A stretch of DNA of 64,000 bases, taken from positions 6,300,857 to 6,364,856 of the forward strand of contig NC_057718.1 in NCBI RefSeq assembly GCF_004010195.1. Direction: 5' to 3'. Origin of the DNA: Chiloscyllium plagiosum (lineage: Eukaryota). Of the stretch, positions 1,705 to 60,822 are shown in pieces (position 1 is the stretch's first letter; every line of letters begins with the position of its first letter). The translations under genes were made by a program, and so were the position numbers. The notes under the pieces are model-generated. The model did no database searches. It worked only from the letters and a program-made list of their open reading frames with translations, and had not been told where the DNA came from.

Positions 1705-1818
1705 AGTGCTGAAGAAGGAGCTGGGCTCCGAGAGCTTGTGTTTTCAAATAAACGTTTCGACTATAACCCGGTGTCATGTGATTTTTGACTTTGTTAACCC
1801 CAGTCCAACTCTTCCACG
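1705..1818 (+). mobile_element. Penelope-like terminal fragment, family B (decayed hammerhead)
   Basis: ctgaagaaggagctgggctccgagagc followed by the family-B terminus ...ctataacccggtgtcatgtg...cccagtccaac. Confidence 0.75.
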
Positions 1819-2144
1819 TGGCTCTGAAACTGCTGCAGTCCATGTGCTATAAATAGACCCACAATGGCTGTTGGGGAGGGAATTCTGAGATTTTTGACTC
1901 AGTGACAGTGAAGTAACAGTGATATATTTCCAAGTCATTATGGTGAGTGGCTTGGAGGGGAACTTGCAAGGGGTGGTGCTGCCATGTATCTGCTGCCCTT
2001 GTCCTACGAGATGTTAATGGAAAATTGTCAAACCCAATGTCAATGTAAGACCCAGCTCTCATTCGCCTCTTGAGCATCTGTATATATTAACATTTATGAT
2101 TAAAATCACACTGTAAATACTTTCTAATGTGCCTTTCTAAAAAA

Positions 2145-2468
2145 TCATTCATGGGGGTTGAGGGCATTGCTGGCCAGGTCAGCATTTATTGCCCATCCCA
2201 GAGGGTAGTTAAGAGTCAATCACACTACTGCGGATCTGGTGTCACATGTAGGCCAGACCAAGTAAGGATGGCAGTTTCCTTTCTTAAAGGACATCAGAGA
2301 CTCAGATGGGTTTTCCAATAATGGTCATCATGAGATCCTTAATTCCAGATTTTTATTGAATTCAAATTCCACCATCTGCCGTGGCAGGATTCAAACCTGG
2401 GTCCCCAACATTACCTGAGTTTCTGGATTTACAGTCCAGTGATAATAACTCTCGGTTATTGTCTCCCC
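2145..2468 (-). mobile_element. tRNA-headed SINE, second family (also about 21257-21570 -, 34845-35150 +, 37060-37410 -, 46800-47110 +, 56910-57260 +)
   Basis: Recurrent body ggaaggaaactgccatccttacctggtctggcctacatgtgactcc and tail gggcaataaatgctggcc seen in at least 6 copies in this window. Confidence 0.8.
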
Positions 2469-2937
2469 CTTCAGAAATGTTATTACTCTCCTCAGGAGCA
2501 GGTGGGACTTGAATGTTAGTTGAAAAACAAACAAAAGCAGAAATGGCTGGAGAAACTCTGCAGGTCTGACAGCATCTATGGAGAGAAAACAGAGTTGACA
2601 TTTTGAGTTGAGTGACCCTTCTTCTGTACATTGCTAGGGACACCAGCAGTGCTCCACAAGAGCTCTTAATTTAGCATGATATTCACTTGCCACTGGTAAT
2701 GCCTCTGAAATTGAAGGCCAAATTCCTTACATTGCAGTAATCTAATTTCTGAATGTAGATCAGTTGTAAAATCTCCTCCAAAGAAAAAAATCTATCAATA
2801 TTGCAGATGGCAGTGAGAAGCATGTTAGTTCTTCCTGGTCAGCTTCCCACACCAATCTGTACTTCCCAAACCAAGATGAAACTGGCAATCATTGCACTTT
2901 TTTCAATAGGAATGAAAGTCAATCCTAATAATTATGA

Positions 2938-3129
2938 TTTGGAGGAGCCGACATTAGACTGGGGTGGACAATGTTAAAAATCACACAACACCAGGTTATA
3001 GTCCAACAGATTTACTTGGAAACACTAGCTTTTGGAGTATCGCTCCTTCATCAGGTGGAGCAGCGTTTCAAAAGCCTTTACTTCCAAATAAACCTATTGG
3101 ACTATAACCTGGTGTTGTATGATTTTTAA
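2938..3129. mobile_element. Penelope-derived fold-back mini-element, family B
   Basis: Two inverted arms of the family-B terminus joined at the hammerhead; flanked by the direct repeat ctaataattatg (TSD). Confidence 0.85.
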
Positions 3130-3264
3130 CTAATAATTATGTTTAGCCATTCATCACAGTTAGTCATGGGGAAGTCAACTGGGTGAGTCAGCTTGTAATT
3201 GTAAAGAATCATTTATTATATAGAGTGTAGCACCTATATATTTTTTCTTTCTGTTTCTGTTTGT

Positions 3265-6090: not shown

Positions 6091-7451
6091 TGCTCCCACA
6101 TCCGCTATTAAATAAGAAGCTTCAGGATTCTGACCCTGAAGTTAACTTATCAACAAGGGATTATCATCTTGGTATAGAGCCTGGCCTGGTGAGAATTCTG
6201 ATGAGAGAATGGGGCACATTTTAATGCAGTTGATTTTCTGGTGGATTACATTTGCCTGTTAGAGAATTGGCCCGGTGGTGGATTCAGCATATTCCCTCTG
6301 GTCCCAATGCCTGACTTTTCTTTAAGAGCAGTCCACATTGAGTGAGGGCCCAGGCCAGGGCATAGAGTCCCATGCTACTTCACATGAACTATTGAAGGCA
6401 AGAGAAATCAGTGCTGTAGCAATAGCAGCTCTGTAACTGTTCGGAAACAAAAAAGAGGAAAGAGATACAGACAACCTGTGAAATTGAGAGGGAGCCTCAG
6501 CAAATGTATTGACCAGATGTACAGGGATCGAGGGAGTAATTGTAGTCACGGGTCATCCCAAGATAATTCCTTGACATCATGAGTCTCTGGAGAGTCAACA
6601 TTCTCACATTATGATCTGATGCTTCCTGTGGACTACATTTAGTTTTTCCATGAAGGGGGTTTCTGGAATTCATTTCCTATGTGCTCACTAAAGTGAAAAT
6701 ACATCAGGAAGGGTCTGAGCTCAATGTAAGCGATATATTCTGGTAGCAACAAAGGAATAGAGCAGTTCCAAGTGTCACATTCACAGTTCAAAACCTGCTA
6801 ATTCAATTAAAAGCAAACTACTGCGGTTGCTGGAAATCAGAAACGAGATTGCTGGAGAAACTCAGCAGGTCTGGCAACATCTGCAGAGAGAGAGAGGAAG
6901 AGACTTAACGTCTCAAGTCCAATTGGAATTCTTCAGATTGGAAAAGTGTTGAAAACTGCCCTCAACAGAGAGGACACATTCTCTCCCTTTCACATTTCAC
7001 ACACTTTTTACATCTATTTCTTCTCTATCACCACCATTACCAATCCCTTTGTCTTTTACACTGGGCCTCAATTTCAGTTTGTTCCTTGTCTGCTTTGAAA
7101 TAATTCCATTCTGCAAACCCTTTCAGTTCTGAGGAAATGTCATACTGGACTCAACGCTTTATCTCTGTCTTTCTCTCCATAGATGCTGCCAAACTTGTTG
7201 AGTTTCTGCAGTGGTCTTTGTATTTCTTTCTGCTCATTCACTGTCTGGCTGTGGAGGATGTAATTTGTGAGTTCCATTTCACATATTCTGTTAAACCTTG
7301 GTTTTAAAATCACCAAAGTCTCTACATATTATTACTCCGAAGTCACATGAGCCAAGCCTAACCTTCATTTTTAGGCAAGTGTTGGATCAAAATGCCTCTC
7401 TCCTTCCTGGCCAATCCCACGTGCATGCTTATTGAATGTTTCTTTAAATAA

Positions 7452-9425: not shown

Positions 9426-10215
9426 TTGAGAAACAGAACTGCACCAGTCCGATCAATACTATGGTTACACGTGCAGATCAGAGGCTCAGAATCCTACAGC
9501 AAGTAACTCAACTCCTGGCCCCTCTTTTTATCAAGGCACAAGTGTGATAGAATACTGACCACTTGCCTGGATGACTGCAACAGATGTTGACATCACTTAG
9601 GAATAAGTAACCAATTTGATTGGCATGCCGTCTCACATCTATACAGGTCACTCCCTCCCACCACCACTGCAGAGTCACAGCAGTGTGTCCCACTTACAAG
9701 ATAACAGCAGCTACTCATCAAGGCTCCTGAGACCACAGCTCCCAAAACGGTGACCTCTGGGATTCCAGCCTTCCGCAAGCGGAGGGCCCCGAGCAACCAG
9801 AAAGAAACCAGAAAGAAAACGTGACCGAATTTCCGAGCTGGAAAGACAACGATGAAGCCGTGTGGGTGTGACAGGACCCATCACATGAGCCCATGAGCAG
9901 CTGAGCTCCTTGCTCAGGAGCCAAAAGCTGCCATCTCCGTCACTGCCGCCATCTTGGAATCTTGGAATGCAACAAATTATTCTGAAAGTCACACATTGTA
10001 GCTGTGTAGGGGAACATTTTCTGAACATTGAAGTGCCACAAAGAGCATTGAGGGGGATCTGACCACGCGAGGTTAAGAGCCAAAATGCATTCGGGTTCCG
10101 AGGAAGTGTCAGACTGGACTCGAAATGTTAAACCCATTTCTCTCTCCACAGATGCTGCCAGACCTGCTGCGTCTCTCCAGCACTTTCTTATTTTAGTTTC
10201 CCACCATCTGCAGTG

Positions 10216-10979: not shown

Positions 10980-11760
10980 TGTGTGTTTATCATTTCCCTT
11001 TCCTACCATGGATTCTACACTGGGATGGGGCTATTGGCGTGGAAGTAAAAGATCCCAAGGAAAGAGTGACCATAACATGATAAAGTTTAGCATTCAGGTC
11101 AAGACTGAGAAACTTGGGTTGGAAACAGCATTGCTAAAGGTTAGTTACAGAGGAATTAGGCTGGAGTGGGCTGGAAAAAGAGTTTAACAAAGAGATAGTT
11201 GAGGAACGAGGGCAGACATTTGAAAAAAAGTTAGTGACTCACAATTAAAATGCTTCCAAGTGAGGAAGAAGGGCTCCAGAAAGGGAATAAAACAACTGTG
11301 GCTCACCAAGGAAGTGAAGTAGCAGAATAAATCGAAAGAAAAAGAATGTGGCAAAGATTAGTGGCAAACCAGAGTTGTGGGAACATTTTAAAAGACAGTT
11401 AAAGATGACTAAAAAAACAAAGAAAGAAAAAAAACCCACAAAGATAAACTAATCAGGCGTAAAAAAATGGATCTTAAAAATGTGTTGCTGGAAAAGCGCA
11501 GCAGGTCAGGCAGCATCAAAGGAGAAGGAGAATCGACGTTTCGGGCATAAGCCCTTCTTCAGGAAATAAAAGGATAGAAGGAGTTTCTGTAAACATATAT
11601 ATCAGAATAAGAGGCCAAAGTGAATATATTCCTCTGAGAGAAACGGACAAGTAAAATAATGATGGGGGAGCAATAACTAGAAGGAATGAATAAATAAATA
11701 CTTTGCGTCAGTCTTCATGAGAGAAGACATGAGTAGTATTCTAATAATACTAAACAATGA
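10980..11760 (+). mobile_element. decayed CR1 ORF2 fragment (endonuclease-RT linker) with a Penelope family-A insert at about 11470-11565
   Basis: agtgaccataacatgataaagttt (SDHNMIKF), tggctcaccaaggaagt (PWLT-like), tttgcgtcagtcttca (FASVF). Confidence 0.7.
11532..11565 (-). ncRNA. minimal hammerhead ribozyme motif, family A
   Basis: Minus strand CUGAAGA-A-GGGC-UUAU-GCCC-GAAA-CGUC. Confidence 0.65.
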
Positions 11761-12039: not shown

Positions 12040-12680
12040 GAGTGGGAGGGGGAGTTGAAATGTTGGGCCACGGGGCGGTTTGGTTGATTGGTGCGGGTGT
12101 CTCGGAGATCAGAGCGCTTCAGGGAACATCTCCGAGACACCCGCACCAATCAACCAAACCGCCCCGTGGTCCAACATTTCAACTCCCCCTCCCACTCTGC
12201 CGAGGATATGGAGGTGCTGGGCCTCCTCCACCGCCGCTCCCTCACCACCAGACGCATGGAGGAAGAATGCCTCATCTTCCGCCTCGGAACACTTCAACCC
12301 CAGGGCATCAATGTGGACTTCAACAGCTTCCTCATTTCCCCTTCCCCCACCTCATCCTAGTTTCTAACCTCCAGCTCAACACTGTCTCCTTGACTTGTCC
12401 AGACTTGTCCGACCTGCCTAGCTCCTTTTCCACCAATCCACTCCACCCTCTCCTCCCTGACCTATCACCTTCATCTCCTCCCCCACTCACCTATTGTACT
12501 CTATGCTACTCTCTCCCCACCCCCACCCTCCCCTAACTTATCTCTCCACGCTTCAGGCTCTCTGCCTTTATTCCTGATGAAGGGCTTTTGCCCGAAACGT
12601 CGATTTTGCCTGTCCTCGGATTTCGCCTGTCCTCGGATGCTGCCTGAACTGCTGTGCTCTTCCAGCACCACTAATCCAGA
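12040..12680 (+). mobile_element. 5'-truncated Penelope-like element (family A) with inverted 5' end
   Basis: ORF 12088-12360 RFREHLRDTRTNQPNRPVVQHFNSPSH...EECLIFRLGTLQPQGINVDF is a GIY-YIG C-terminus; pyrimidine-rich 3' UTR; hammerhead at 12574; 70-bp fold-back at the 5' end. Confidence 0.9.
12572..12603 (+). ncRNA. minimal hammerhead ribozyme motif, family A
   Basis: CUGAUGA(12574-80)-A-GGGC-UUUU-GCCC-GAAA-CGUC; palindromic ACGU; predicted cleavage after 12601. Confidence 0.7.
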
Positions 12681-13835: not shown

Positions 13836-14384
13836 GTAGGTCTGAGCTTGTTTCCTGAAACAATTTCTCTTCTAATTCACCTCAACAAACTAGTCAGACC
13901 AGGGCATATAAGTACCAAGCAGAATAGAACAACAACGTGTCACAGAAGTCACACGGATGATAGTACATAGTACGGTGACAAAACATGTGCGTAACAACCC
14001 ACCAGCTCAGCAAGCTAACCTGCATCCTCAACATTAGGCAGGTCAATGATATTCAATTCCTGCTGCCTTGACACTTTTTCTGCTCTACTGATAGTCTTTT
14101 TTCTTGGTTGGTCAAGGAGTTTAATGATCTTATCAATGTGAAAGAATAAAAAAATACAATGTGGCAAAAATTATTGGTAAGCCAGAGAATTGACAACGTT
14201 CTAAAAACCAACACAAGATGACCAAAAGCAGGAGAAATTAAATTTTGAGGGTAAATGAGACTTTCCACGTGTAAATAAATGGAGACTTGGTGATGGGATT
14301 TATTTCACCTGCCAAGAATTGTTTCGGTGCTGTCCTGATTTGCCTTACCAAAACGCAGTACATCACATTTATTTAAATTAAACC

Positions 14385-14895
14385 CCAAATTAAACTCCTT
14401 GGCCCATTGGCCCATCTGATCAAGATCCCTTTATACTCTGAGATAATCTTTTTCACTGCCAACTAGAACACTTATTTTGGTGTCATCTGCAAACTTGATA
14501 ACTATGCCTCCTATATTCACATCCAAACCATTTATATAAATGAGGAAAAGCAGTGGACTCAGCATCGATCCTTGTGGCACACCGCTAGTCTCAGGCGTCC
14601 AGTCTGAAAAGCAAACCTCAACCACCACCACCCTTTGTCTCCTATTTTCAAGCCAATTATATTTAATTGGTTATCTCCCTCTGATTCCTGAAGAAGGGCT
14701 TATGCCTAAAACATCGACTCGCCTGCTCCTCAGCTGCTGCCTGACCTGTTGTGCTTTTCCAGCAGCACACTCTCAACCTCACTATCTCCCTCGGAAACCT
14801 ATATGATCCAACCTTACTAACCAGTCTAACATGCGGAACCTTATTGAATGCTTGGCTAGTCCACACAGATAATGTCCACCGCTCGGCTTTCATTA
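14385..14895 (-). mobile_element. CR1 RT fragment with Penelope family-A insert (about 14675-14780)
   Basis: SGVPQGSMLSPLLFLIYINGL...KFADDTK RT motifs. Confidence 0.85.
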
Positions 14896-15666: not shown

Positions 15667-15904
15667 GAGCTGAAAAATGAGTTGCTGGAAAAGCGCAGCA
15701 GGTCAGGCAGCATCCAAGGAGCAGGAGAATCGATGTTTCGGGCATAAGCCCTTCTTCAGGAATGGAGATCCCTGAAGAAGGGCTTATGCCCGAAACATTG
15801 ATTCTCCTGCTCCTTGGATGCTGCCTGACCTGCTGCGCTTTTCCAGCAACACATTTTTCAGCTCTGATCTCTAGCATCTGCAGTCCTCACTGTCTCCCAT
15901 TAGG
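15667..15904. mobile_element. Penelope-derived palindromic mini-element, family A, with two back-to-back hammerhead cores
   Basis: About 95-bp near-perfect inverted arms around ggaatggagatc; cores at about 15735-15761 (-) and 15771-15797 (+); flanking direct repeat tcaattgt. Confidence 0.85.
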
Positions 15905-17700: not shown

Positions 17701-18967
17701 TTGGGCGAGGTGGAGGGTGGAGTTAAGGCATCAGAAGTCGAAGTTACCCCAGGGGATGGGGTGGAGTTGAACATTCAGATGTTCGTGGGTGAGGCTCACA
17801 AAAACCAATTAACAGCCATTTAAACGGCCATAGGCAAGATATTTGCGCCCCACCCCCACCAACCCCACTTTGCTGCTTTCTCATCGACTTGCATAGGAAG
17901 ATCTCATCAGTAGGGAAACCCGATATATAGAGTGATTTTAATCAACCTGATCGCAATGTTATGACACACCTCCAGGGCATTGGAATCCGGATCCTCTGGC
18001 CTGGAGGTAGGGACAAAAGCACTACAACACAACGGCCTTAAGGCAAAACTTTACCACCATCAATGTGACCCATTCTGAACAGGATAGAAGGTACATATAG
18101 GCCTCTACAAAATGGGCCAATCCCTTTGCTAAACTGTTATCAGGCTATTGATGCTAACCTTTCAGCCAGAATTAACCCAAACACATCTGTATCACCACTC
18201 AGTGTTGGATATACGTTGTTTCTCTTCTTCTCTTTCCTTCTTACAAACGCAGACACAGCTGTTTACCCCAGAAGGTAACAGAAACAGTGAAATAAAGGCA
18301 ATAATACTTGGAAATGAATAAACTGATGGTACCTAAGTTTCCCTTTGACCGTTCAGACCAGTAGGTCTCATTCACAGACCATTTATTAACTGGTTACACT
18401 TGCTGTACAATAGGTATTATGTTCACTTGTTACCTATTACAGTGATGTACAGTTTCCATATTAACTATTTTTCTTTCAAAGCCCACGATGAGGTGTATCA
18501 GGGGAAAAGTTAAGCCATTGCTTTGATCAGCTGTTTTTAGTTTGGCTTGCTGATGCAGGCCTTACACACGTTCATGTTCCAGCATAATATTCAGCCTGGG
18601 TGGCATGATTGACAACTGACTTCCCTGGGTCTGCTTTTATTTCACCCAAACGTGACTAGTATTCCATCCAAACATGGCAACGTAAGAGGGAGTCATGTGG
18701 AATCCCTGCTGTCTCTCTGCATTTTCTCAGTCCACAGAGCAGGGAGGATGTAGGGCCTAGCTACTGCTCCATCATCTGACATTAATTTGATTAGAGATCA
18801 CCCTAGTATTAAGAAGGGGAACAGACACGGAGACTGTTTCAGAAAATTAACAGCTCTGTTAGCATCTGTGCGGAGAGAAAAACAGAGTTAACATTTCAAG
18901 TTCTATTTTAATTCAAGGTCAGAAGTCACATGACACTGGGTCATAGGCCAACAAGTCTATTTGAAAT

Positions 18968-19003
18968 CACAAGCTTTCGGAGCACTGCCCCTTCATCAGG
19001 TAG
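18968..19003 (-). ncRNA. minimal hammerhead ribozyme motif, family B
   Basis: Minus strand CUGAUGA-A-GGGGC-AGU-GCUCC-GAAA-GCUU-GUG. Confidence 0.6.
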
Positions 19004-19249
19004 AGTGAAAGGAAGGACACAGACTCAGAATTTATAGCCTGAGAGATCTAAAGATGGTACTAATGGTGCGAGTGGAGTGTCAATAGGCTGAATAATAGAC
19101 CTCTGCAGGTGATCAAGAGTGTCAGACCGTGTGAGTAAAGTGTCAACAGCTGAATAGCAAGTGAAGGGATGATGTATAATCCGATTAATTGAAGCAGAGA
19201 GATAATTACACAAAATTAAAAATAAGGTGGTGCTGGAGACAAACCATCA

Positions 19250-40380: not shown

Positions 40381-41121
40381 TTGTTCTTGGAGCTGCTCCC
40401 ATCCACGCAAGTGAAGAATATTACCTCACTCTCTTGACTTGTGCCTTGTCGCCTTGGGACAGGTTCTGGGGAGTCAGGAGGTGAGTTGCTAGGTAGGTGA
40501 CAATGTTTAGCAACGGGAGAGGTTTCCTAGCAGCCTATCCTCCTTCAGTCTACACAGATCCTAACCACCCACTCAACTCAGGCTAAGTCTCACAATGATG
40601 ATAACAAAGCTAATGTTGTTAATGGCATGTCAGCCATGACTCAATAGGTTATATTGTTCTCTCTGAATTCCACTTTTCAAATTTAAAAATTAAAACCTAT
40701 TGGGCCGAAGGGCCTGCTTCCACACTGTAGGGAATCTAATCTAATCTAATTTAATTTGAAACAGTCCCTGAACACAAAAATTAATGTGAACAGCCCAGTG
40801 TGGTGTTGAGTGTGAACTGCACTGTTCAAGGTGCTATTTTTTAATTTGGATATGATGTTAAATTTCCATCTACCTGCTCAGTTGGAATCAATTAGTCCCA
40901 CGGCCCTACTTTGAAGGTTGCAGAAGGTGCCTTCAGAGTCCTGGCCAATGTTCTGAGGAAGGGTTGCTGGACCTGAAACATTATCTCTGATTTCTGCTCA
41001 CAGACGCTGCCAGATCTGACCTGCTGAGCTCTTCCAGCAACTTCTGTTTTTGAAGGTACTAAGGAATATAGGCCAAAGGCAGGTATATAGAGTCAGGCCA
41101 CAAATCAGCCATGATCTCATC

Positions 41122-43427: not shown

Positions 43428-43617
43428 AAGTAGACAAACAGGAGGCTGGAAGAATACAGCATCAGGAGGTGGAGAAGTCAACATTTCGGGTATAACCCTT
43501 CGTCTGAATCTTTGACTTCTCCACCTCCTGATGTTGCCTGGCTTGCTGTGTTCTTCCAGCCCTCTGTTTGTCTCATTTGGATTTCAGCACCTGCAGTTTT
43601 ATTTTAAGTCTCTGAAC
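43428..43617. mobile_element. Penelope-derived fold-back mini-element (family A variant)
   Basis: Inverted arms joined at acatttcgggtataacccttcgtc; TSD aagaaactgt. Confidence 0.75.
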
Positions 43618-44189
43618 AAGAAACTGTGGCTGCTGGAAATTGGAAACAAAATTAGAAATTACTGGAGTTAATTTAGCAGGTCTGGCAGCATCTGTGGAGC
43701 GAACATAGAGTTAAAACTTTGGTCCAGTGACCTGTCATCAGAACATGTGAGACCGGAAACATTGACTCTGCTTTCTTCAGTAATCTCTGTTTTCATAACG
43801 TCTTTGTGGGGATTGGTTGGAGGTGATTGGGAGCGTGTGAGGTGCATGTGTGGGTAGGAGAAATCTGCCATTGCCTTCCGGTTAGGCCTATGTGTGGCTG
43901 CAGACACACAATAAAGTTCTTATCTTGTAACTGCCTTTGGAAAATAAATTAATTAATGGGCAATAAATAACGGTCTTGTTGGAGTCACCCACATCCTGTG
44001 AAAAAATACAGGAGAAATAATTGACATAATTAAGACAGGAAATTGAACAATGAACAGTAGATGTAATGGGAAGAACAATAAAGCAATGCAAACTGAGTGG
44101 TCATAGAAACACGCCTTGTTGCAAAATGGTCTGATTTTGAAATATGTCAATGAATAGAGGGACATTGGTAGAATATTTCCATGATAAAT

Positions 44190-45975: not shown

Positions 45976-47319
45976 TCACAGTACTCACTGAAGCTTGGAG
46001 GATGAAGTCTACCTGACCAGAAATAGGCTCATTTACAGAATTTGATTGCAAACACAGTTACTCCCATTTTGCCAAACAGGATTATAACCTTTATTTTAAT
46101 TCCAGTGGGCTGGGGTATTATGAACATCCATGACCTTTGTTATCATTGGAAGGATCATGCCCTTTTGCATCCAGCTGAAAACACAGGCAAAGTCGAGATT
46201 TATTTAATTATCTGCCACCTTGCAGCACCCCGTCAGTGCTGCCCTGGAGTGGTCTACAGCTGAGGGGGCAGGATCTTGGCATCTCTTACTCACATCCTCA
46301 CCCAATGAGATGTCTCCGAGTCCCATCAAAGAGTCAAGTTGGTTTCTCATCAACGCATACCCAGCTGGAGCTGTCACAGAGGGGCCAGTTATCAGGAGCT
46401 TGGAATCGACTGACACACAGAGAAGCTCTCACACATTGACAGGTTGAATAAAACAAAAACTGAGTGGTTCAGTTTCCAGCAGATGGAACAAAGGAAACAT
46501 ATCGACTGGATTCTGCCCATTCCTGCCTGATCTAAACAGGAAACTGGTTTCAAATAGTCAGCACTTTGAATGGCTGGGAGTTTTTGCTTCATGTTACATT
46601 TCGACCTGGTTTACCTGCACATACACAGACATGAGCTGATCAGCCTCATTAAGTCATTACCCCCCAGAGCCTGTCCACCACCTACAAGGCACAAGTCAGG
46701 AGTGTGATGGAATACTCCCCACCTGCCTGAGTGGGTGCAGCTCCAACAACACTCAAAAAGCTCGACACCATCCAGGACAGAGCGGAGCACTTGGGGCAGC
46801 AGTGGCCCAGTGGACTATCACAATTCAGACAGCCAGGCTGCAGTGTACTGGGGGGCACATAGCAGATTGTCAAATCTGAATTTAATACAAATCCACAATT
46901 AAAAAGCTGCTGACCATGCTGACGATCATTAAAAAAAAACCCGTCTAGGTCACTAATGCCCTTTGAGGAATGAAATCTGCCATCTGTACCTAGTCTGGCT
47001 GACATGTGACTCCAGTCCTGCAGCAATATGGTTGGCCATTAACTGTCCTCTGGGCATTTTGGATTGGGCAATAAATATTGGGCTGATTAGAAACACTCAT
47101 ATTCTATGTATAAATAAAATAAATCCACTCCCCCACCACCAACACTCAATAGCAGCAGTGTATGCTATCTACAAGAAGCACTGCAGAAAATCACTAAAGA
47201 CCCTTAGGCTTTCCTTCCAAACCCACAGCCACTTCCATCTCAAAGGACAAGGGTAGCAGATACAGAGGAATGCCACCCCCTGCAAGTTCCCCTCCAAGCT
47301 ACTCATCTTCCTGACCTGG

Positions 47320-48375
47320 ACAACGGATGAATGGGCACCGCACAACAATCAACAGAGAGGAGGGTTCCCTCCCAGTTGGGGAACACTTCAGTGGTCCAGG
47401 ACATTCGACCTCGAATCTTCAGGTGACCATCCTCCAAGGCGGACTTCAGGACAGGCAGCAGAGGAAAGTGGCCGAGCAAAGGCTGATAGCTAAGTTCGGT
47501 ACCCATTGGGAGGGCCTCAACCGGGACCTTGGGTTCATGTCACATTACAGGTGACCACCATTGCACTATACACACACACACAGGCACTCCTATACACACG
47601 GACACACACCCTTGCAGACACACACACTCCCACACTCTCTCAGAGACTTATACCATTCTACAATCATGCACACACATATACACTCTCTCTCACAGACGCT
47701 CACAACCCCCCACCCCAGACACACACACTCCCACACTCACACATGCACCCTCTCACAGACTTAAGACACTCTACACTCACCACACACACACACATATACA
47801 CTCTCTCTCACACTAACAACCCTCAATCAAGACAGACAAACACACAGACAGACAAAGACCCACATGCACACATATATTTTGTGGGGTGAATTTGTACTTG
47901 CAGAGTTACATTGTACGTTGCTCAAAAACTGCACAAATTTATGTAAAACTCTGTTATCTCACTTTTTAGATTAGGATCAATCTAAACATCATGGCATAGA
48001 CAGAGAACGCAGGGGGCTAATACCTTCAACATATTGTCTAGCTATCACCATTGTTAACAGCTAACCTGAGAATGCAACCTTTTAAAAAAAAAATTGTGAT
48101 TTACACATGAAAGAAGTGAAACTATCATGGTATTCAAACAGATGAAAGACTCAACAGACAATCAAGGTATTTTTCAATGTATAATTTCAGTTACATCACA
48201 CTGTAAACTTTTGCTATAAATTCTGTGCCTTACAATTGTGTCCTCCACAACCACCTGATGAAGGAGCGGCGCTCCGAAAGCTAGTGTGCTTCCAATTAAA
48301 CCTATTTGACTATAACCTGGTGTTGTGTGATTTTTAACTTTGTACACCCCAGTTTAACACCGTCATCTCCAAATC
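47320..48375 (+). mobile_element. 5'-truncated Penelope-like element, family B (about 1.05 kb)
   Basis: ORF 47327-47554 MNGHR...LPVGEHFSGPGHS...EQRLIAKFGTHWEGLNRD is a GIY-YIG C-terminus; CA-rich 3' UTR; hammerhead; terminus ...catctccaaatc. Confidence 0.9.
48252..48286 (+). ncRNA. intact minimal hammerhead ribozyme motif, family B
   Basis: CAC-CUGAUGA-A-GGAGC-GGC-GCUCC-GAAA-GCUA-GUG: stem I CAC/GUG, palindromic AGCU, predicted cleavage after 48283. Confidence 0.75.
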
Positions 48376-49744: not shown

Positions 49745-50800
49745 AGAACAAAGAACAATATAGCACAGGAACAGGCCCTTCGACCTGCACCGACACATTT
49801 TACCCTTCCATACTAAAACTGTCTTCACTTTTAGGATCCGTATCCCTCTATTCCCTTCCCATTCATGCATTTGTCCAGGTCTTCCTTCAATGCTGCTATT
49901 GTGTCTGCTTCCACCCCCTCCTCTGGCAGCGCATTCCAGGCACTCACCACCCCTTGAGTGAATAACTTGCCTTGCACGTCTCTTTTAAACTCGCTAGGCG
50001 AAAGTGAGGACTGCAGATGTTGGAGATTAGAGTCAATGGTATGGTGCTGGCAAAACCCAGCCGGTCAGGCAGCATCCGCGGAGCAGGAGAGTCGACGTTT
50101 CGGACAAAAGCCCTTAAAGTTTCCCCCACACCGCATCTTGAACTCCTGCCCCCTAGTAATTGACTCCTCCACCCTGGGAAAAAAGCCTCAAAGGTTTCAC
50201 TCTATCCATGCCTTTCACAGTCTTATAAATCCTATCTCATCCACAGACTCCATCAATAAACACATAGACTTAAACCCAATATACCGCCCACTACAATGAA
50301 CTACCGGAACCAGTAACCGGATACAGCAGGAACGGAACAAAATAAACACCAGAAGACACAGTACAGCAGCACATCACAGGAGGCTCCAAAGCCCAGATGA
50401 TGTCACCTAGACAGGGGACGAAATGTCTGCAAATCACCTTCCCATACGAACATACCCGCAACCATAGCAACCGGCACCCGAGCTACAAATCTTTACACAA
50501 ACCTTGTACAATCTTATAAACTTCTATCAGGTCACGGCTCAACCTCTTGCATTCCAGTGAAAAAAAAAACCCAATCTGTCCAACCTTTCTTCATAGCTAA
50601 ACTCCCCAGACCAGGCAACATCCTGGTAAACCTTTCTTGTATCCTGTCCAAAGCATCCACATCCTCCTGGTAGTGTGGTGACCAGAACTGTACATGATAT
50701 TCCAAGTGTGGCCTAACTAAAGTTCCATAAAGCTGCACCGTAACTTGCATATCTTTATACTCAATGCACCTTCCAATGGAGGCAAACACGTCGTAGGCAT
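49745..50800 (-). mobile_element. CR1 3' fragment with two Penelope inserts (family A about 49990-50113; family C 50230-50507)
   Basis: LVRPHLEYHVQFWSPHY; the family-C insert SINKHIDLNPIYRPL has TSD aca(g/a)tcttataaa. Confidence 0.85.
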
Positions 50801-51109: not shown

Positions 51110-51930
51110 TAATAGTCTCACCTCTGAGTCCCACGTGAGAGACTTCACCACAAAATCTAGGCTGACACTGATGGAGTACTGCACTATCGGTGATTTTGAA
51201 TTTCTAATTAAACTTTAAACTGTGGCCCTAACTACCCTGGAAACAGTGAGGTCTGTAGATGCTGGAGATCAAAGTTGAGAGTGTGTTGCTGGAAAAGCAC
51301 AGCAGGTCAGGCAGCATCCAAAGAGCAGGAAAATCAATGTTTTGGGCAGAAGCATATTCTCCTGATGAAGGGCTCCGGCCCAAAACGCTGATTTTCCTGC
51401 TCCTCGGATGCTGTCTGACCTGCTGTGCTTTTCCCTAGCTACACTGCCAGATGGAAACAATATATCCCAAGGGAGTGCTTTCGAGAAGGGGCTTGGTTAG
51501 CTCACCTGGCTAGATAGCTGGTTTACAATTGAGACTGATGCCAGCTGCATGGGTTCAATTCTAGTAATGGCTGATTTTACCCCAAGTTCCTTCCCAAACT
51601 CCTCTGTGTGCCTGAGGTGTGATGACATTCAGATTAAATCACACTTAGTTATCTCTCTCTAATGGGAGAGCAGCCCTATGATCCAAAGGGCTCTGGTAAC
51701 TTTCCCTTCACTTTAAAGAAGTCCGGGGATCGATTTCCTGAGGTAATAATTACCCCAACATCATTGAGACAAAAAAATTCGAGGTCACATTTGCCATTTG
51801 GGGGACCTGTGGACAAGGTGTGTTTTAAATTTCAACAGTGTGTACATTCAAAGTAGGTCATTGACTCCAAAGTGATTTTGGACAGCCCTGAGACAACTTG
51901 AGAGGTGCTATAGAAATGCAAGATTGTGCT
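51110..51930 (+). mobile_element. old Deu-domain-type SINE (SacSINE1/AmnSINE1-like) with nested inserts (Penelope fold-back about 51240-51445; a small tRNA SINE about 51490-51712)
   Basis: ctcacctctgagtc...tctaggctgacact...gcactatcgg head and gtgctatagaaatgcaag tail; related decayed copies at about 23820-24100 and 40630-40950. Confidence 0.55.
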
Positions 51931-53000: not shown

Positions 53001-53984
53001 TCTGAGGTGAGTTTCCTTGTCTCTGGGTTGCTTCAGTAATGAATAGGTGCAAAGGTTATTAACCTGACTTACAACCCCCTCACTATTAGACCTGCAGCTT
53101 TGGCTCCTAATGTTTGACCACTCTGGTTTAGCTGCCTAACTGGTTCAGGGTTTGACTTACTCTGTGAGGCTCTGGAGGAATATTGGAGTATTCAAGAACT
53201 CCTTACAACATCATGATACAGGCCAATAAAGTAGATTCATCAAGGCATGGGATCCACAGGCTTCCCTGAAGTCAGACCAAAACTTAGCTCCTACTTAGAC
53301 TGAAACAAATAGCAGGAGAAAGCACATCATATATCTGGAAGCTCCATCATTCACAACCAAATCGTTATTCCATCAAGAAATCACTTGTGGCAATTTTCAC
53401 TGATTAACTGATTATCAGTAAACCCACATTTCCAATTCGGTCTCTTCCATTTTTTTGTATATCCAGGAGTATGCTTCCACTCCATGGTATGTCCCTTTCT
53501 CCACCACCAAATCAGTCAGGCTAATTTTTCATTGATTACACACCTCCAGTAAATCGCCTGTACTTCTCAGTTGATTAATTTACATGCAAATCCATTAAAA
53601 GGGCAATGCAAACATCAAAGTTGAGGGAGAGGTGGGTAGGCAAGGAAGGGACAAAACAGATACAGTCAAATGGAAAACAAGAACCACAGGTCCAGCAGGA
53701 AGAATATTGAAAAAGAGTTATTGAAAAGTTAGAAGTTTCCTGCAACACTCTCTTGTTCATACATTTTAGTTCAGTTCCTTTGTCACTGGTCATTTCAAGG
53801 ACACAGTTTTAATCAGTCAATAATAACGCAAACTAAATTGCCCACAGTTTTTAGAAGATATCTTGAGTTTTCAGAAGCTTTCACTGGGCCACCCAAGTCA
53901 AAAGTGCACATTTTCGGGGAGTTAGGGGAGTTTTAATCACTCGCAGGACACGGGGCTTCTTGGCTGAGTTGAAGAGGGTTGTGG

Positions 53985-54262
53985 GGCTGGAAAAGCACAG
54001 CTGGTCAGGCAGTATCCGAGGAGCAAGAGAATTGACGTTTTGAGCACAAGCTCTTCATCAGGAATGAGGGGGTGGCCCAAGGGGGCTGCGAGGTAAATAG
54101 GAGGAGGGGGGGTGGAGCGGGGGTAAGGTAGCTAAGAATGCGATAGATAGGTGAAGTTGGGGGTGAAGGTGACAAGTCGGAGAGGAGAGTAGAGCAGATA
54201 GGTGGGAAGGAAGGTGGATAGGTAGGACAGGTTAAGAGGGTGGTGCTGAATTGGAAGGTTTC
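53985..54262 (-). mobile_element. Penelope family-A 3' fragment
   Basis: Terminus, decayed hammerhead (about 54035-54062) and purine-rich strand of the 3' UTR homologous to 12360-12680. Confidence 0.8.
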
Positions 54263-54721
54263 CTGACCTTAGTTGTCCTTGAGAAGGTGGTGTTGAACTG
54301 CCTTCTTGATCCACTGTAGTCCACATACTATAGGCAGACCCACATGTTGTTAGTGAGGGAGTTCCAGGATTCTGGCCCAGTGACACTGAGCGAATGGAGA
54401 TGTCTTGAACCATTGTTGTTTGACTATTCATCCAGAAACTCAGCTAAGATATGAGGACCCTGGGTCTGTGTCCTGCTATGGCAGAAGGAGGACTTTGAAT
54501 TCAACAAATATCCGGAATTACAAATGTGGAAAGTAAGCATCCTCAGCTCTGGTTTTCATTAAGAGAGGTCAAGTTCTGTCAATTCATTCAATGCAAATTA
54601 AAGCAAAATTCTGAGGAAGAGTCATACTGAACTTGAAGCATTAACTCTGTTCTTCTCTCTCTACAGATGCTGCAGGATCTGTTGAGTTTCTCCAGTGTTC
54701 TTTGCATTTTTTTCTTAAAAG

Positions 54722-55421: not shown

Positions 55422-55545
55422 TGCGCCTGATGGAGAAGCAGCGCTCCAAAAGCTTGTGATTTCAAATAAACCTGTTGGACTATAACCTGTTGTCATGTGA
55501 CTCCTGATCTTGTTCACCCCTGTCCAACACCAGCACCCCCACATC
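55422..55545 (+). mobile_element. Penelope family-B terminal fragment
   Basis: cctgatggagaagcagcgctccaaaagc...ctataacctg...tccaacaccagcacc. Confidence 0.75.
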
Positions 55546-56357: not shown

Positions 56358-58061
56358 AATGTTGGAGATTCTTAGCAAAACATGGAGCTGAAAGGTTGTG
56401 ACCATCTTACATCATGTGAATAATCCCACAATCTTCTCCTAAGATCTTTCTCAGCACAGACACTTGCCTTGAGCCATATTGGTTCAGACCAAGTCAAGAA
56501 GTGATTGAAGATACTGGATGGAGTAGAGCCATCAGTGTTCCAGAGCTAACTGTGTCCCGAACCTAGCTGTTCTAATGCAGCTACAACATTGATATCTACC
56601 CAGATATGTCCGATTTGCAAAAAGGCAGGACAAACCAATTTGGCTACAACAATTTGGCATCCTGTCAGTCTAATGAATAAAGTGGTATTAGCTGAAATTA
56701 ACAATACAACAAACTGGTTTCTCTAGCAACAGATAATTCACCAAAGCTCCAGATCTCATTCCAGCTTTGGTCCAAACATTCACAAAAGACTTGAAGTAAC
56801 TGTCCTTCACATTGAAGAAACATTTGACATCGAGGAGCCCTCGAAAAATTGAAGTCCATTGTGATGAGGAAAATAACTTTGCTCTGGTTGGAGACATGCC
56901 CAGCATATGGAGGAGATAGTGGTGTTGTGGTAATGCCCCAGGTAAGTCAAAGGCCCAGGCTAGTGCTTTTGGGACATGGGTTCAAGGCAGTTAATGGAAT
57001 GTAAGGTTATTTCTTAAGTTTGGAATTAGCATTGGTGGCCACAAAGCAATCATTGGTTATCAAATGAAACCCACCTAGTTCACTACGATTCTCTAGGGAA
57101 GAAAATCTGCCGTCCTTACTTGGTCTGCCCAACATGGGGCTCCAGACCCACAGCAATGTGGCTGACTCCAAACTGCCCTATGAAATGGCCCAGCAAAGCA
57201 CTCAGTTCAAGGGTATTGAAGATGGACACCAAATGCTGGTCATGCCCACATCCTGTGACCAATAGAACATAGAACATAGAACTGTTCAGCACAAGAACAG
57301 GCCCTTCAGCCCACGATGTTGTGCTGAACATGATGCCAAATTAAACTAATCCCAGACTCCTACCACTCTCTGTGTAAACACTTTGCCCCTCAAATCTCCC
57401 TTGAACCTCCCCCCTTACCTTAAATGCATGGCTCCTAATATAAAGCATTTCAACATTGGAAAAAATATTCTGACCGTCAACCCGAGCTATGCAACTCATA
57501 AATTTCCACATTTATATCAAGTTTCCCCTCAGCCTCTGCCGCTCCAGAGAAAACAACCCAGATTTAGAAAATAGGACATGGAGCATGGAACAGTACAGCA
57601 CAGAACAGGCCCTTCAGCCCACGATGTTGTGCCGACCATTGATCCTCATCTAAGGTAAACCTAATGTATGAACCCTCAAATTTCTGTGACCATATGCATG
57701 TCCAGCAGTCTCTTAAATATCCCCAATGACCTCACTTCCACAATTGCTGCTGGCAATGCATTCCATGCTCTCTCAAATCTCTGCGTAGAGAACCCGCCTT
57801 TGACATCCCCTCTATACTTTCCACCAAACAGCTTAAAACTATGACCCCTCGTGTTAACAATTTCTGCCCTGGGAAAAAGTCTCTGGCTATCAACTCTATC
57901 TATTCCTCTCATTATCTTGTATACCTCAATTAGGTCCCCTCTCTTCCTTCTTTTTTTCCAATGGAAAAAGTCCGAGTTCAGTCAACCTCTCTTAATAAGA
58001 TAAGTCCTCCATTCCAGGCAGCATCCTGGTAAACCTCCTCTGAACCCTCTCCAAAGCATCC

Positions 58062-58429
58062 NNNNNNNNNNNNNNNNNNNNNNNNNNNNNNNNNNNNNNN
58101 NNNNNNNNNNNNNNNNNNNNNNNNNNNNNNNNNNNNNNNNNNNNNNNNNNNNNNNNNNNNNNNNNNNNNNNNNNNNNNNNNNNNNNNNNNNNNNNNNNNN
58201 NNNNNNNNNNNNNNNNNNNNNNNNNNNNNNNNNNNNNNNNNNNNNNNNNNNNNNNNNNNNNNNNNNNNNNNNNNNNNNNNNNNNNNNNNNNNNNNNNNNN
58301 NNNNNNNNNNNNNNNNNNNNNNNNNNNNNNNNNNNNNNNNNNNNNNNNNNNNNNNNNNNNNNNNNNNNNNNNNNNNNNNNNNNNNNNNNNNNNNNNNNNN
58401 NNNNNNNNNNNNNNNNNNNNNNNNNNNNN
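58062..58429. other. assembly gap (368 N) inside a CR1 copy
   Basis: N run. Confidence 1.
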
Positions 58430-60609
58430 ATCCCATTCCTACTGACCTTCTGAATGAGCATACCATGGGGAACCTTATCAAATGCCATGCTGAAGTCCAT
58501 ATACACAACATCCACCGCTCGACCCTCATCAACCTGTCTAGTAACATCCTCAAAGAACTCAATAAGATTTGTGAGGCATGACCTGCCCCTCACAAAGCCG
58601 TGCTGACTGCATTTAATCAAGCCATACTCTTCTAGGTGGTCATAAATTCTATCCCTCAGAATCCTTTCTAACACCTTTCAGACAACAGACGTGAGACTGA
58701 CTGGTCTTTAATTGCCGGGCATTTCCCTATTTCCTTTCTTGAGGAGAGGAATTACATTTGCCTCTCTCCAGTCCTCAGGTATGAATCCGGTGGAGAGCGA
58801 GGATGCAATGATCTTCGCAAGTGGTGAAGCAATCACATTTCTCACTTCCCAAAGCGGCCGTGGACACATCTGGTCTGGCCCTGGCGACTTGTCAATCTTA
58901 ATGTTTGCCATAATTTTCAGCACATCAGCTTCCTCAATCTCTATCCGTTCCAGCCTGCTTACCTGCTCCTCAACGGTTTCATTCACTACAAGATCCTTTT
59001 CTTTATTAAAGACAGAAGCAAAAAACTCATTTAGGGCTTCCCCTGCCTCCTCAGACTCTATACACAAGTTCCCTATGTTATCCCTGATCGGCCCTACTCT
59101 TTCTTTGCCCAGCCTTTCCTTATACCTCCTAATCCAGGCAGCATCTTGGTTTACCCCTTGTGCACCCTTTCCAAAGCCTCCACATCCTTGCTGTAATGTG
59201 GCAACCAGAACTGAACACAATACTCTAAGTGCAGCTGAGACAAAGTCTTATAAAGCTGCGACATGACACAGCGTCTCAGAGACATAGAGTCATACAGCAC
59301 AGGGATAGACCCTTTGGTCCAATCAGTCCATGTCAATCATAATCCCAAACTAAACTAGGCCCACCTGCCTGCTCCTGAACCATATCCCTCCAAACCTTTC
59401 CCATTCTTGTATCGATCCAAATGTCTTTTGAAAATTGTAATTGTACCCATATCCACCATTTCCTCAGGAAGTTCATCTCACATGTGAACCACACCCTGTA
59501 TAAAAAAATTGCCTCTCATGTCTTTTTTATATCTCCCTCCTCTTACCTTAAATATGTGCCTCCTCATCTTGAAATCCCCAATCCTAGGGAAAAGACAACT
59601 ACCAATAACACTATCTATACCTCATTATTTTATAAACTTCTATAATGTAGCCTCTCAACCTCCTATACTCCAGTAAAATAAAAAAGTCCCAGCCTATCCA
59701 GCCTTCCTTTACAACTCAAACCCTCCATACCTGGCAACATCCTGGTAAATCCCTTCTGAACAGTGTTTAATAATACGTTTCCCATAGCTGGGAGAACAGA
59801 ACTAGACATGGTATTCCAGAAGAAGCCTTGCCAATATCCTGCACAACCTCACCACAACTTCCCAACTCTTATATTCAAAGGACTGAGCAATGAAGGTAAG
59901 TGTGCCAACAGCCTTTTTAACCACCCTGTCAAGATGTGATGCAAACTTCAATGAATTATGTAACTGTACCCTTTGGTCCCTCTGTTCTACAACACTACCC
60001 AAGGCCCTATCATTTATTGTATAAGCCCTACCCTTATTTGTTGGATCAAAATGCAATGCGGTGCATTTATCCAGATTGAATTGCATCTGCCATTTTTCTG
60101 CCCATTGACTCATTGATCAAGAACCCTTTGTAATCTGAGAAAACATTCTACACCATCTACAAGTACTGCTAATATTGGTGTCGTCTGCAAACTTACTAAC
60201 CATGCCTTCTATATTCTCATCCAAATCATTCATATAATTGACAAATAAAAGAGGACCGGACTCTAATCAGAGTGTTGCTGGAAAAGCACAGCAGTTCAAG
60301 CAGCATCCGAGGAGCAGGAAAATCGACGTTTCGGGCAAAAGCCCTTCAGGACCCAGAGTCAATCCCAGTGGAAAACGACGAGTCACAGGCCTCCACTTCA
60401 AAAAGCAACCCTCCACCATTACTCTCTGTCTCCTGCCATTGAGGCAGTTTTGTATCCAATTGGCAAGCTCATCCTAAATCCCATGCGACCCAACTTTACT
60501 AATTAGTCTACAATGCAGAATCTTGTCAAAGGCTTTATTAAAACCCAAATAAACAACATCTACTGCTCTGCCATCATCAATGTTTTCGTAACTTCCTCAA
60601 AAAACTCAG

Positions 60610-60822
60610 TTAAACATCACACAACACCAGGTTATAGTCCAACAGGTTTAATTGGAAGCACACTAGCTTTCGGAGCGACGCTCCTTCATCACGTGATAGT
60701 CAGGTGAAGGAGCATCGCTCCGAAAGTTAGTGTGCTTCCAATTAAACCTGTTGGACTATAACCTGGTGTTGTGTGATTTTTTAACTTTGTACACCCCAGT
60801 CCAACACCGGCATCTCCAAATC
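60610..60822. mobile_element. Penelope-derived fold-back mini-element, family B
   Basis: Near-perfect inverted arms meeting at two hammerhead remnants (60666-60727); TSD-like caaaaa(a)ctca. Confidence 0.85.

What the first reader, a model, noticed from the sequence alone, without database searches (positions are those of the whole stretch)
1705..60822. Dense population of hammerhead-ribozyme-bearing Penelope-derived mini-elements from about four families
Seen: more than 20 loci carry CUGANGA-stem II-GAAA followed by a palindromic ACGU or AGCU and an NUH triplet. Family A (GGGC/GCCC stem): 11532, 12574, 15735/15771, 23494, 34385, 51361, 60325. Family B (GGAGC/GCUCC): 3030, 18970, 23317, 48255, 60666. 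Family C (GUUACC/GGUGAU): 22293, 50395. Decayed family D (ctgaggaagggt...gacctgaaac): 7128, 10095, 40953, 43715, 54611. Families A-C are physically linked to GIY-YIG ORF ends at 12088, 20805/47327 and 22102. Established: Penelope-like elements carry minimal type I hammerheads that cleave poorly as monomers and better as dimers through a palindromic stem III. Inference: most copies are 100-250 bp, ORF-less and TSD-flanked, so they look like an amplified non-autonomous ribozyme retroelement system at roughly one motif per 3 kb.
Basis: partly seen in the sequence, partly recalled or inferred. Interest (0 to 1): 0.7.

Follow-up and report, generated by a model that had tools for sequence, protein, structure and literature searches.

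The report
Penelope retroelement ends carrying hammerheads, shark
This stretch of shark DNA is littered with short, mostly decayed end-pieces of Penelope-type jumping genes, each carrying a minimal hammerhead ribozyme motif; the kind is already known, but the pieces start and stop at fixed points that hint at how these elements are copied.

Summary
The repeats are real and denser than reported: 44 arms in 36 insertions in 63 kb. Only 6 keep an intact minimal hammerhead, against 0 in 200 shuffles. Families A (with D, its old relative) and B are 3' ends of two Neptune-type Penelope-like elements. C's ORF link was not confirmed.

They show the published PLE anatomy: head-to-head inverted pairs, an optional 35-45 bp tail, and target-site duplications in 13 of 24 units. 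There are no tandem arrays, so nothing here is a retrozyme, and no separate non-autonomous lineage is shown. Copies decay without a clear excess of core conservation.

Two features go beyond the papers I read. 5' ends pile up at the ribozyme's 5' edge (22 of 32 arms). Family-B RNA is polyadenylated 57-60 nt after the core start, upstream of both genomic 3' ends. This fits internally primed reverse transcription on the 5' repeat, an inference not yet tested.

The scan reported the same kind on other shark DNA. Verdict: new member of a known kind; interest 0.3.

The parts
47315..48375 (+). Family B long copy: end of a Neptune-type GIY-YIG ORF (47315-47551), CA-rich 3' UTR, intact minimal hammerhead (C3 48255, predicted cut after 48283), inner 3' end at about 48340, tail to 48375
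48295..48315 (+). Poly(A) signal (ATTAAA in this copy, AATAAA in the reads' consensus) and poly(A) addition sites at 48312 and 48315, followed by a GU-rich stretch
   Evidence: table 7: 309 and 415 RNA reads with A-run loose ends, of 3,692 laid; hexamer at +38 to +44 in 9 of 13 B arms
12040..12672 (+). Family A long copy: inverted 5' piece (12040-12149), end of a Neptune-type GIY-YIG ORF (12112-12357), 3' UTR, intact hammerhead (C3 12574), 17-bp internal duplication, no tail
20640..21245 (+). Family B (subtype B2) copy: broken ORF end in inverted orientation (DNA match 20701-20934; left edge 20640 estimated by eye), joined to a forward arm with a G8A hammerhead (C3 21127) and tail
22096..22366 (+). 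Family C copy: putative ORF end whose stop codons lie in the CUGAUGA box, intact hammerhead (C3 22293); ORF identity not confirmed by any tool
50230..50511 (+). Family C copy inside a LINE remnant, U4A hammerhead (C3 50394), 9-bp TSD
13945..14029 (+). Family C short decayed arm
11482..11567 (-). Family A short arm, intact hammerhead (C3 11562), no tail, no TSD found
14682..14782 (+). Family A short arm, G12A, 10-bp TSD
15680..15899 (.). Family A head-to-head inverted pair, palindrome broken in both arms, tail on the + arm, 8-bp TSD
23487..23623 (+). Family A short arm with tail, intact hammerhead (C3 23494), small fold-back palindrome at its 5' end, 11-bp TSD
34286..34525 (.). Family A inverted pair with partly duplicated junction, tail on the - arm, 13-bp TSD
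36653..36756 (-). Family A arm starting at +43 with a short inverted stem II piece, tail, 16-bp TSD
43428..43617 (.). A-related inverted pair (different stem II), 10-bp TSD
49996..50115 (-). Family A arm starting at +6 (first core box absent), with tail
51246..51451 (.). Family A inverted pair, tail on the - arm, 8-bp TSD, G12A and U16.1C in the + arm
53980..54233 (-). Family A arm with 171 nt of upstream UTR, G12A, 8-bp TSD
60266..60351 (-). Family A short arm, first core box incomplete
1709..1812 (+). Family B short arm, A14G, stem I 5' arm absent
2936..3131 (.). Family B inverted pair, tail on the - arm only, G12A, 12-bp TSD
18914..19054 (-). Family B2 arm with 55 nt upstream, intact hammerhead (C3 18999), no tail
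23227..23398 (.). Family B2 inverted pair; the second arm begins at about the predicted cleavage site; tail on the - arm; 10-bp TSD
39240..39420 (.). Family B2 inverted pair, both arms lacking the first core box, tail on the + arm, 8-bp TSD
55424..55545 (+). Family B2 short arm with tail, A9G and G12A
60608..60822 (.). Family B1 inverted pair, tail on the + arm only, 12-bp TSD
2543..2633 (-). Old A-lineage (D) relic
6819..6937 (-). Old A-lineage (D) relic with tail
7123..7214 (+). Old A-lineage (D) relic
10092..10184 (+). Old A-lineage (D) relic
18836..18906 (-). Old A-lineage (D) relic, 3' half
21867..21958 (-). Old A-lineage (D) relic
22620..22696 (+). Old A-lineage (D) relic, 3' half
25874..25965 (+). 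Old A-lineage (D) relic
31829..31907 (-). Old A-lineage (D) relic
40946..41041 (+). Old A-lineage (D) relic; core boxes intact, palindrome broken
43623..43746 (-). Old A-lineage (D) relic with tail
54604..54698 (+). Old A-lineage (D) relic

Best explanation
The loci are dead-on-arrival insertion products of autonomous Penelope-like retrotransposons: two Neptune-type lineages (A with its old subfamily D, and B) and a probable Poseidon-type one (C). Positions below count from C3 of the CUGA box.

Shown: each arm is the pseudo-LTR end of the element. It runs from the hammerhead to one of two fixed 3' ends (about +80 to +87, or about +120 to +128 with the tail), often as a head-to-head inverted pair with a TSD.

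Inferred, from published work on the Anolis element: the element's GIY-YIG endonuclease nicks the target, and its RT starts inside the RNA at one of two sites about 35-45 nt apart.

Inferred here: most cDNAs stop at or fold back near the ribozyme's 5' edge, giving 80-130 bp arms; a minority run on into the 3' UTR and ORF. The ribozyme is selected only in the master elements, where it probably works as a dimer or with protein help. Inserted copies decay, mostly at CpGs.

Why the 5' ends are fixed is the least certain step. My split: RT runs off the transcript's 5' end after priming on the upstream repeat (about 0.45); pause and fold-back at a hairpin flanking the ribozyme (about 0.3); a separate short transcript or something else (about 0.25).
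For: - B ORF end: relative P0004 carries an RT (Pfam RVT_1, E 5e-9), a Cys-rich linker and a VVYLI...WYIG segment read as GIY-YIG by eye. A's relative P0016 has the same layout and is 32% identical to P0004. The linker marks Neptune or Nematis (passage).
- Two fixed 3' ends in the window and genome-wide: DNA contig loose ends with unlike flanks at 48340-48343 and 48375 in all 3 DNA runs laid.
- Tail on one arm of inverted pairs and TSDs of 8-16 bp, as described for PLEs.
- Compensatory changes between families: stem II pair 4 is C-G in A, G-C in B, A-U in C and U-A in D; the palindrome middle is CG in A and C, GC in B; stem I pair 2 is U-A, A-U and C-G.
- No excess protection of the core within families: private non-CpG substitutions are 5 of 170 core against 55 of 1,017 other positions, p = 0.25. 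G12, in a CpG, is mutated in 5 of 17 A/B arms.
- Long and short arms intermix in the trees.
- The poly(A) site of B (+57 to +60) lies upstream of both genomic 3' ends, so those ends cannot be templated by a polyadenylated unit-length 3' end. This agrees with internal initiation.
Against: - No full-length element lies in the window and no genome is held, so the masters were not seen.
- The fixed 5' ends (22 of 32 arms at -8 to +15, 0 at -54 to -9) are not what random 5' truncation gives, and are also what a discrete short element would give.
- One A subgroup of 5 short arms (support 88/95) has no long member in the window.
- Counting all substitutions, non-CpG core positions looked more conserved than the rest (5 of 170 against 90 of 1,018, p = 0.006). 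That run had mis-set anchors, counts subfamily differences and selects arms with a recognisable core.
- C's ORF was not confirmed.
- The read lay covered family B only.
Confidence: 0.8

Rival explanations
1. A self-propagating non-autonomous element: the 85-130 nt unit is transcribed on its own, from solo copies or from tandem retrozyme arrays elsewhere in the genome, and is mobilised in trans by the PLE protein.
For: Both ends are fixed and TSDs are common. A 2026 preprint reports tandem PLE-derived retrozymes in one chondrichthyan and, in Xenopus, dispersed monomers. One short-only A subgroup exists in the window.
Against: No tandem ribozyme units in the window, and no head-to-tail joint of unit size among the 15 joints shown of 156. 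Junctions are individually different. Both B subtypes have long, UTR- or ORF-linked members. A B transcript ending at its poly(A) site (+57 to +60) would lack both 3' ends and could not template the copies.
Confidence: 0.13
2. Circular RNA template: the ribozyme cuts multimeric transcripts, the monomer circularises, and rolling reverse transcription gives permuted copies (the 2014 proposal).
For: Proposed in PMC4209133. One inverted arm in the window (23343) begins at about the predicted cut site. Opposite-strand joints 48246-48247 to 48286 occur in 8, 7 and 5 contigs of the three DNA runs.
Against: Most 5' ends lie about 30 nt upstream of the cut site, and only 3 of 32 fall at +16 to +45. The 48286 signal coincides with a 2-nt subfamily indel at 48284. 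No pile-up of molecule ends was listed (table 6), though a poly(A)-selected library could not show cut products well. For the Anolis element, cleavage was not needed for insertion in vitro.
Confidence: 0.05
3. The copies are kept by the host as functional ribozymes or regulatory elements.
For: Family B supplies a working poly(A) site in element-sense RNA. Gene models of related sharks include the B ORF end (P0001, P0007-P0009, P0011).
Against: Only 6 of 44 arms are intact, with CpG-type decay and no significant core protection. Stem I is weak in folding models (probability 0.03-0.56 at most, and 0 in several contexts).
Confidence: 0.02

Closest known systems
Minimal hammerheads (min-HHR) in pLTRs of metazoan Penelope-like elements (Cervera and De la Pena 2014, PMC4209133)
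   Same: Type I minimal core, an extra base after A9, G-C at pair 10.1-11.1, palindromic 15.2-16.2, several families per genome, mostly single motifs tied to truncated PLEs, some close pairs on opposite strands.
   Different: No shark is named in the parts read or in the searchable supplement. Stem I here is only 2-3 bp. Density is 6 intact motifs in 63 kb, far above the 4,000-9,000 per genome given for coelacanth and Xenopus if the window is typical (inference).
Neptune-clade endonuclease-bearing PLEs and their insertion anatomy (Arkhipova et al. 2013, PMC3846280; Craig et al. 2021, PMC8557442)
   Same: RT, Cys-rich linker, C-terminal GIY-YIG; 5' truncation; head-to-head inverted pLTRs with a junction palindrome; an optional 30-40 bp tail on one arm; TSDs of 8-10 bp or none; solo pLTRs.
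   Different: Here solo and inverted pLTR ends far outnumber ORF-bearing copies and start at a fixed point. No passage read reports such clustering or a poly(A) site inside the pLTR.
Poseidon of Anolis carolinensis, PAc (Frangieh et al. 2024, PMC11167929)
   Same: Hammerhead about 100 nt upstream of two RT start sites whose spacing makes the tail.
   Different: In PAc the ORF starts at stem II of the ribozyme; in family B that ATG meets a stop after 8 codons (read from the sequence). PAc is Poseidon; A and B are Neptune-type.
Non-LTR retrozymes (Cervera and De la Pena 2020, PMC7229834; Li et al. 2026 preprint 10.64898/2026.07.22.740005)
   Same: ORF-less, PLE-related, type I hammerhead, TSDs longer than 4 bp.
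   Different: Retrozymes are tandem arrays with two or more ribozyme-bearing units, mostly canonical motifs, and give circular RNAs. None of the units here is tandem.

Membership tests
Minimal type I hammerhead of PLEs | CUGANGA and GAAA boxes around stem II, palindromic stem III stub, UH triplet, short stem I | tested here: met
   6 strict hits, 0 in 200 shuffles; the same 6 intact among 22 scored
Minimal type I hammerhead of PLEs | Compensatory changes between families | tested here: met
   Stem II pair 4, stem I pair 2 and the palindrome change on both sides between A, B, C and D; 3-4 lineages only, so few independent events
Minimal type I hammerhead of PLEs | Self-cleavage as a dimer or with protein help | not testable with these tools
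   Energy models put the double-hammerhead fold above the dimer minimum in all 6 intact copies; no cleavage data
Endonuclease-bearing PLE, Neptune clade (A/D, B) | ORF with RT, Cys-rich linker and C-terminal GIY-YIG domain upstream of the pLTR | tested here: met
   ORF ends 76-91% identical to P0001, P0002, P0004 and P0016; RVT_1 in P0004; linker and GIY-YIG read by eye. No Pfam GIY-YIG hit; no RT tree was built, and Nematis shares the linker
Endonuclease-bearing PLE, Poseidon clade (C) | GIY-YIG ORF end upstream of the ribozyme | tested here: inconclusive
   Two C copies share a 46-bp upstream match whose translation resembles a Poseidon C-terminus (recalled, from no call); Pfam, two protein searches and the Atlas gave nothing usable
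PLE insertion anatomy | Head-to-head inverted pLTRs with an optional tail on one arm | tested here: met
   11 of 24 A-C units carry an inversion; two fixed 3' ends also in 3 DNA runs
PLE insertion anatomy | Target-site duplication, variable and sometimes absent | tested here: met
   13 of 24 A-C units with 8 bp or more, null 2.1%
PLE insertion anatomy | Full-length pLTR-ORF-pLTR master | not testable with these tools
   None in the window; no genome held
Non-LTR retrozyme | Two or more head-to-tail units, each with a hammerhead | tested here: not met
   None of the 10 TRF rows is a ribozyme unit; window only
Non-LTR retrozyme | Abundant circular RNA | not testable with these tools
   Only a poly(A)-selected single-cell run was laid
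Separate non-autonomous PLE family | Short copies form their own lineage with a shared 5' junction | tested here: inconclusive
   Short and long arms intermix and junctions differ, but the trees have no starred branch and one short-only A subgroup

The most novel reading that the evidence does not exclude
Shark Neptune elements replicate with retrovirus-like logic. The transcript starts a few bases before the hammerhead of the upstream repeat and is polyadenylated about 60 nt after the hammerhead of the downstream one, making a terminally redundant R-like segment that contains the ribozyme. RT primes internally at +86 or +120 on the upstream copy, runs off the RNA's 5' end, and must jump to the downstream copy to continue. 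The short arms would be integrated strong-stop cDNAs whose jump failed or folded back. This would give a mechanism for pseudo-LTR regeneration, which PMC2377424 calls unexplained, and would leave the genome seeded with very many portable poly(A) signals.
Probability: 0.3. Interest if true: 0.65.

Novelty: new member of a known kind. Interest (0 to 1): 0.3.

Why it matters
As a class this is known: PLE minimal hammerheads were described in 2014, and the scan has noted them on other shark DNA. What this window adds is a natural record of the replication cycle. Fixed 5' ends, two fixed 3' ends and a poly(A) site between them make a testable model for how PLE terminal repeats arise and whether the ribozyme acts in transposition, both still open in the papers read. 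If the density is typical, shark genomes hold unusually many such motifs, and family B is a large source of cryptic poly(A) sites. Both points are extrapolations from one window and one RNA run.

Tried and rejected
- Rfam at gathering threshold: 0 hits. This says nothing against minimal motifs.
- No whole genome is held, so copy number, masters and arrays could not be surveyed.
- Pfam on the four ORF-end fragments: 0 families.
- Family C ORF: 0 of 16 candidates scored; the single hit is a repetitive protein and was rejected; no Atlas hit.
- The MAFFT alignment of 22 motifs misregistered GAAA between families, so pairs were counted from anchored coordinates instead. One search had four mis-set anchors and was redone.
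- Apparent core conservation was rejected after restricting to private substitutions.
- RNA depth doubles near 48248, but first-mate reads anchored at the poly(A) site end about there, so it was not used as evidence for a start site.
- Summed contig depth is higher over 48248-48352 than upstream (X1 2.9-13.1 million against 0.26-1.48; X5 3.4-8.7 against 0.17-2.77; X13 2.3-7.2 against 0.08-2.0). The tool states this is no copy number, and it is noisy, so it counts as weak support only.
- No indexed RNA holder was listed for window 20500-23700.
- A splice acceptor at stem I, as in D. virilis, was considered. TSD-bounded short arms show no shared upstream exon, and no GT..AG joint is among the 15 shown.
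- Host gene: 118 of 150 long frames were scanned and gave only 6 RVT_1 hits; no host exon was identified.
- Earlier findings by place: nothing; by words for polyadenylation and 5' clustering: nothing.

Full report
SOURCE. No genome is held for this window. The ORF end at 47315-47551 is 90-95% identical to proteins named for Chiloscyllium punctatum and 71-76% to Heptranchias and Scyliorhinus, so the DNA is from a carpet shark close to Chiloscyllium (inference). The rest of the window gave only LINE-type RT remnants: 6 RVT_1 hits in 118 of 150 long frames scanned. Positions below count from C3 of the CUGA box (C3 = 0).

1. THE OBSERVATION. Profiles built from window copies give 44 arms (16 A, 12 D, 13 B, 3 C), which I group by hand into 36 insertions in 63,132 non-N bases. 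A strict minimal-hammerhead descriptor finds only 6, with none in 200 dinucleotide shuffles; the loose two-box pattern gives 17 against 5.4 by chance. Base-by-base scoring of 22 arms returns the same 6; the other 16 have a core change, a broken stem or a broken palindrome. The remaining 22 arms were not scored this way and none passes the descriptor. Rfam gave nothing at gathering threshold. D shares its 3' half with A and is an older branch of it.

2. WHAT THE FAMILIES ARE. The B ORF end matches P0004, a 643-aa protein with an RT domain (RVT_1, E 5e-9), a Cys-rich linker and a GIY-YIG-like segment read by eye. The A ORF end is 77% identical to P0016, which has the same layout. P0016 and P0004 are only 32% identical, so A and B are old, separate lineages. 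The linker marks Neptune or Nematis (PMC8557442, passage); I call them Neptune-type without a tree. Pfam did not name the endonuclease. C's upstream frame resembles a Poseidon C-terminus from memory only, and four searches failed to confirm it.

3. ANATOMY. 3' ends fall at two fixed points, about +80 to +87 and about +120 to +128. For B this holds genome-wide: contigs leave the reference into unlike flanks at 48340-48343 and 48375 in all three DNA runs laid (for example 399 contigs at 48341 and 695 at 48375 in X1). Eleven of 24 A-C units carry an inversion, mostly head-to-head pairs with the tail on one arm. Exact flanking repeats of 8 bp or more occur in 13 of 24 A-C units and 0 of 10 D units tested (2 of 12 D relics were left out), against 2.1% of 1,122 mismatched pairs; a tighter first pass gave 8 of 24 against 0.9%. 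This is the published PLE pattern: inverted pLTRs, optional tail, junction palindromes, 8-10 bp TSDs and solo pLTRs (PMC3846280; PMC8557442). No ribozyme unit is in a tandem array.

4. FUNCTION OF THE RIBOZYME. Between families the stems change on both sides while the core stays, which points to selection in the master elements; only three or four lineages contribute. Within families there is no clear protection: private non-CpG substitutions are 5 of 170 in the core against 55 of 1,017 elsewhere (p = 0.25), and G12, which sits in a CpG, is hit in 5 of 17 arms. Against this, an earlier count of all substitutions gave p = 0.006 for core conservation; it mixes in subfamily differences and favours arms with a visible core. 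Folding models give a firm stem II in 4 of 6 short contexts, a weak stem I, and a double-hammerhead fold less stable than the dimer minimum. That fits published low activity as dimers (PMC4209133) and protein-assisted cleavage (PMC11167929). Activity is not shown here.

5. TWO FEATURES BEYOND THE PAPERS READ. (a) 5' ends cluster. Of 32 A-C arms, with ends set by hand start at -8 to 0, 22 at -8 to +15, 3 at +16 to +45, none at -54 to -9, and 7 further up. A constant stop rate predicts 4.6 in that interval (p about 4e-12). The interval was chosen after seeing the data, arms of one pair are not independent, D was left out, and arms starting after +45 were not counted. TSDs confirm true ends at -6 and -7 for two single arms. 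(b) Family B has a working poly(A) site. In about 2% of one raw single-cell poly(A) run, 3,692 reads were laid on 47870-48470; 309 and 415 run into A-tails behind 48312 and 48315, 12-15 nt after the hexamer at 48295-48300, on the element's sense strand. A further 296 reads with a loose end at 48286 show the same tail in their consensus. The window copy has no A-run there, none of the 13 B arms ends in one, and 9 of 13 keep the hexamer; only 1 of 14 A arms and 0 of 3 C arms have one inside the element. Whether these RNAs are element transcripts or host transcripts ending early is unknown, and genomic A-tailed copies elsewhere are not excluded (1,993 loose-end rows were not shown). No pile-up of molecule ends at the cut site was listed, but this library could not show it well.

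6. MECHANISM. Shown: anatomy, lineage for A and B, decay, and the B poly(A) site upstream of both genomic 3' ends. From the literature: RT of a PLE starts at two internal sites that define the tail, and cleavage is not needed for insertion in vitro (PMC11167929). Inferred: the +86 and +120 ends must be copied from the upstream repeat or from read-through RNA; most cDNAs stop or fold back at the ribozyme's 5' edge; the products integrate and decay. I give 0.8 to the by-product reading. Short and long arms intermix in trees with no starred branch, and one group of five short A arms has no long member here, so a non-autonomous subfamily is not excluded (0.13). The boldest reading, a strong-stop cDNA and a strand transfer as in retroviruses, gets 0.3. 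One point against it: in D. virilis the start site lies 46 nt before a 75-nt intron whose end meets helix I, so there the RNA does not start at the ribozyme.

7. WHAT IS IN PRINT. Read: PMC4209133, parts 1-2 of 4, plus a term search of one of its two supplement files; preprint 10.64898/2026.07.22.740005, parts 1-3 of 5 and passages (supplements closed, and they may list shark families); PMC11167929, parts 1-2 of 4 and passages; PMC2377424, part 1 of 4 and passages; passages of PMC8557442, PMC3846280 and PMC7229834; PMC6765202, passages and half of one section. Lunse et al. 2017 was not held and is known only through that review. Searches for shark PLE hammerheads gave 1, 2 and 0 papers, seen as listings only, none on this subject by title. 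Searches for PLE polyadenylation, solo pLTRs or strong-stop transfer showed no such report among the listings seen (20 of 145 listed). The library lacks most subscription papers and Repbase, so absence is weak. The scan's own notes hold five similar shark findings, seen after I had registered my reading.

8. VERDICT. Real, dense, mostly decayed PLE ends with minimal hammerheads: a new member of a known kind, not a retrozyme, and not shown to be a separate non-autonomous system. Interest 0.3, carried by the fixed 5' ends and the poly(A) site.

Noticed in passing
window 48295-48315: Family B carries a used poly(A) site followed by a GU-rich stretch; element-sense reads outnumber antisense about 8 to 1 at 48248-48268. 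Each B copy may be a portable poly(A) signal.
   Followed up: partly
window 48376 onward (reads): Loose-end consensus behind the tail begins with the same five letters, ATGAC, in all three DNA runs despite unlike flanks; the element may continue a few bases into a start codon.
   Followed up: no
window 22293-22299: The putative family C ORF ends with two stop codons inside the CUGAUGA box of the ribozyme; an 18-bp tandem repeat lies in the same frame at 22171-22225.
   Followed up: no
window 23325-23370 and 43490-43535: In two inverted pairs the second arm begins within about 2 nt of the predicted cleavage site; similar joints appear in a few contigs but are confounded by a 2-nt indel.
   Followed up: partly
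window 18999-19020 and 21105-21140: [quoted passage not shown]
   Followed up: partly
proteins P0001, P0007-P0009, P0011: Named host gene models of related sharks (a phosphatase regulatory subunit isoform, an XRCC5 isoform, receptor-domain proteins) include the family B ORF end, suggesting exonisation or annotation artefacts.
   Followed up: no
window 39042-39523: Degenerate telomere-like hexamer repeats surround the B2 inverted pair at 39240-39420.
   Followed up: no
window 14434-14670, 19257-19673, 30713-31411, 58432-58677, 61627-62097: LINE-type RT remnants (RVT_1); several PLE arms (49996, 50230, 60266) sit inside such remnants by my reading of the flanking frames.
   Followed up: no
window 35946-36445 and 58062-58429: Two assembly gaps (868 N in all).
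   Followed up: no
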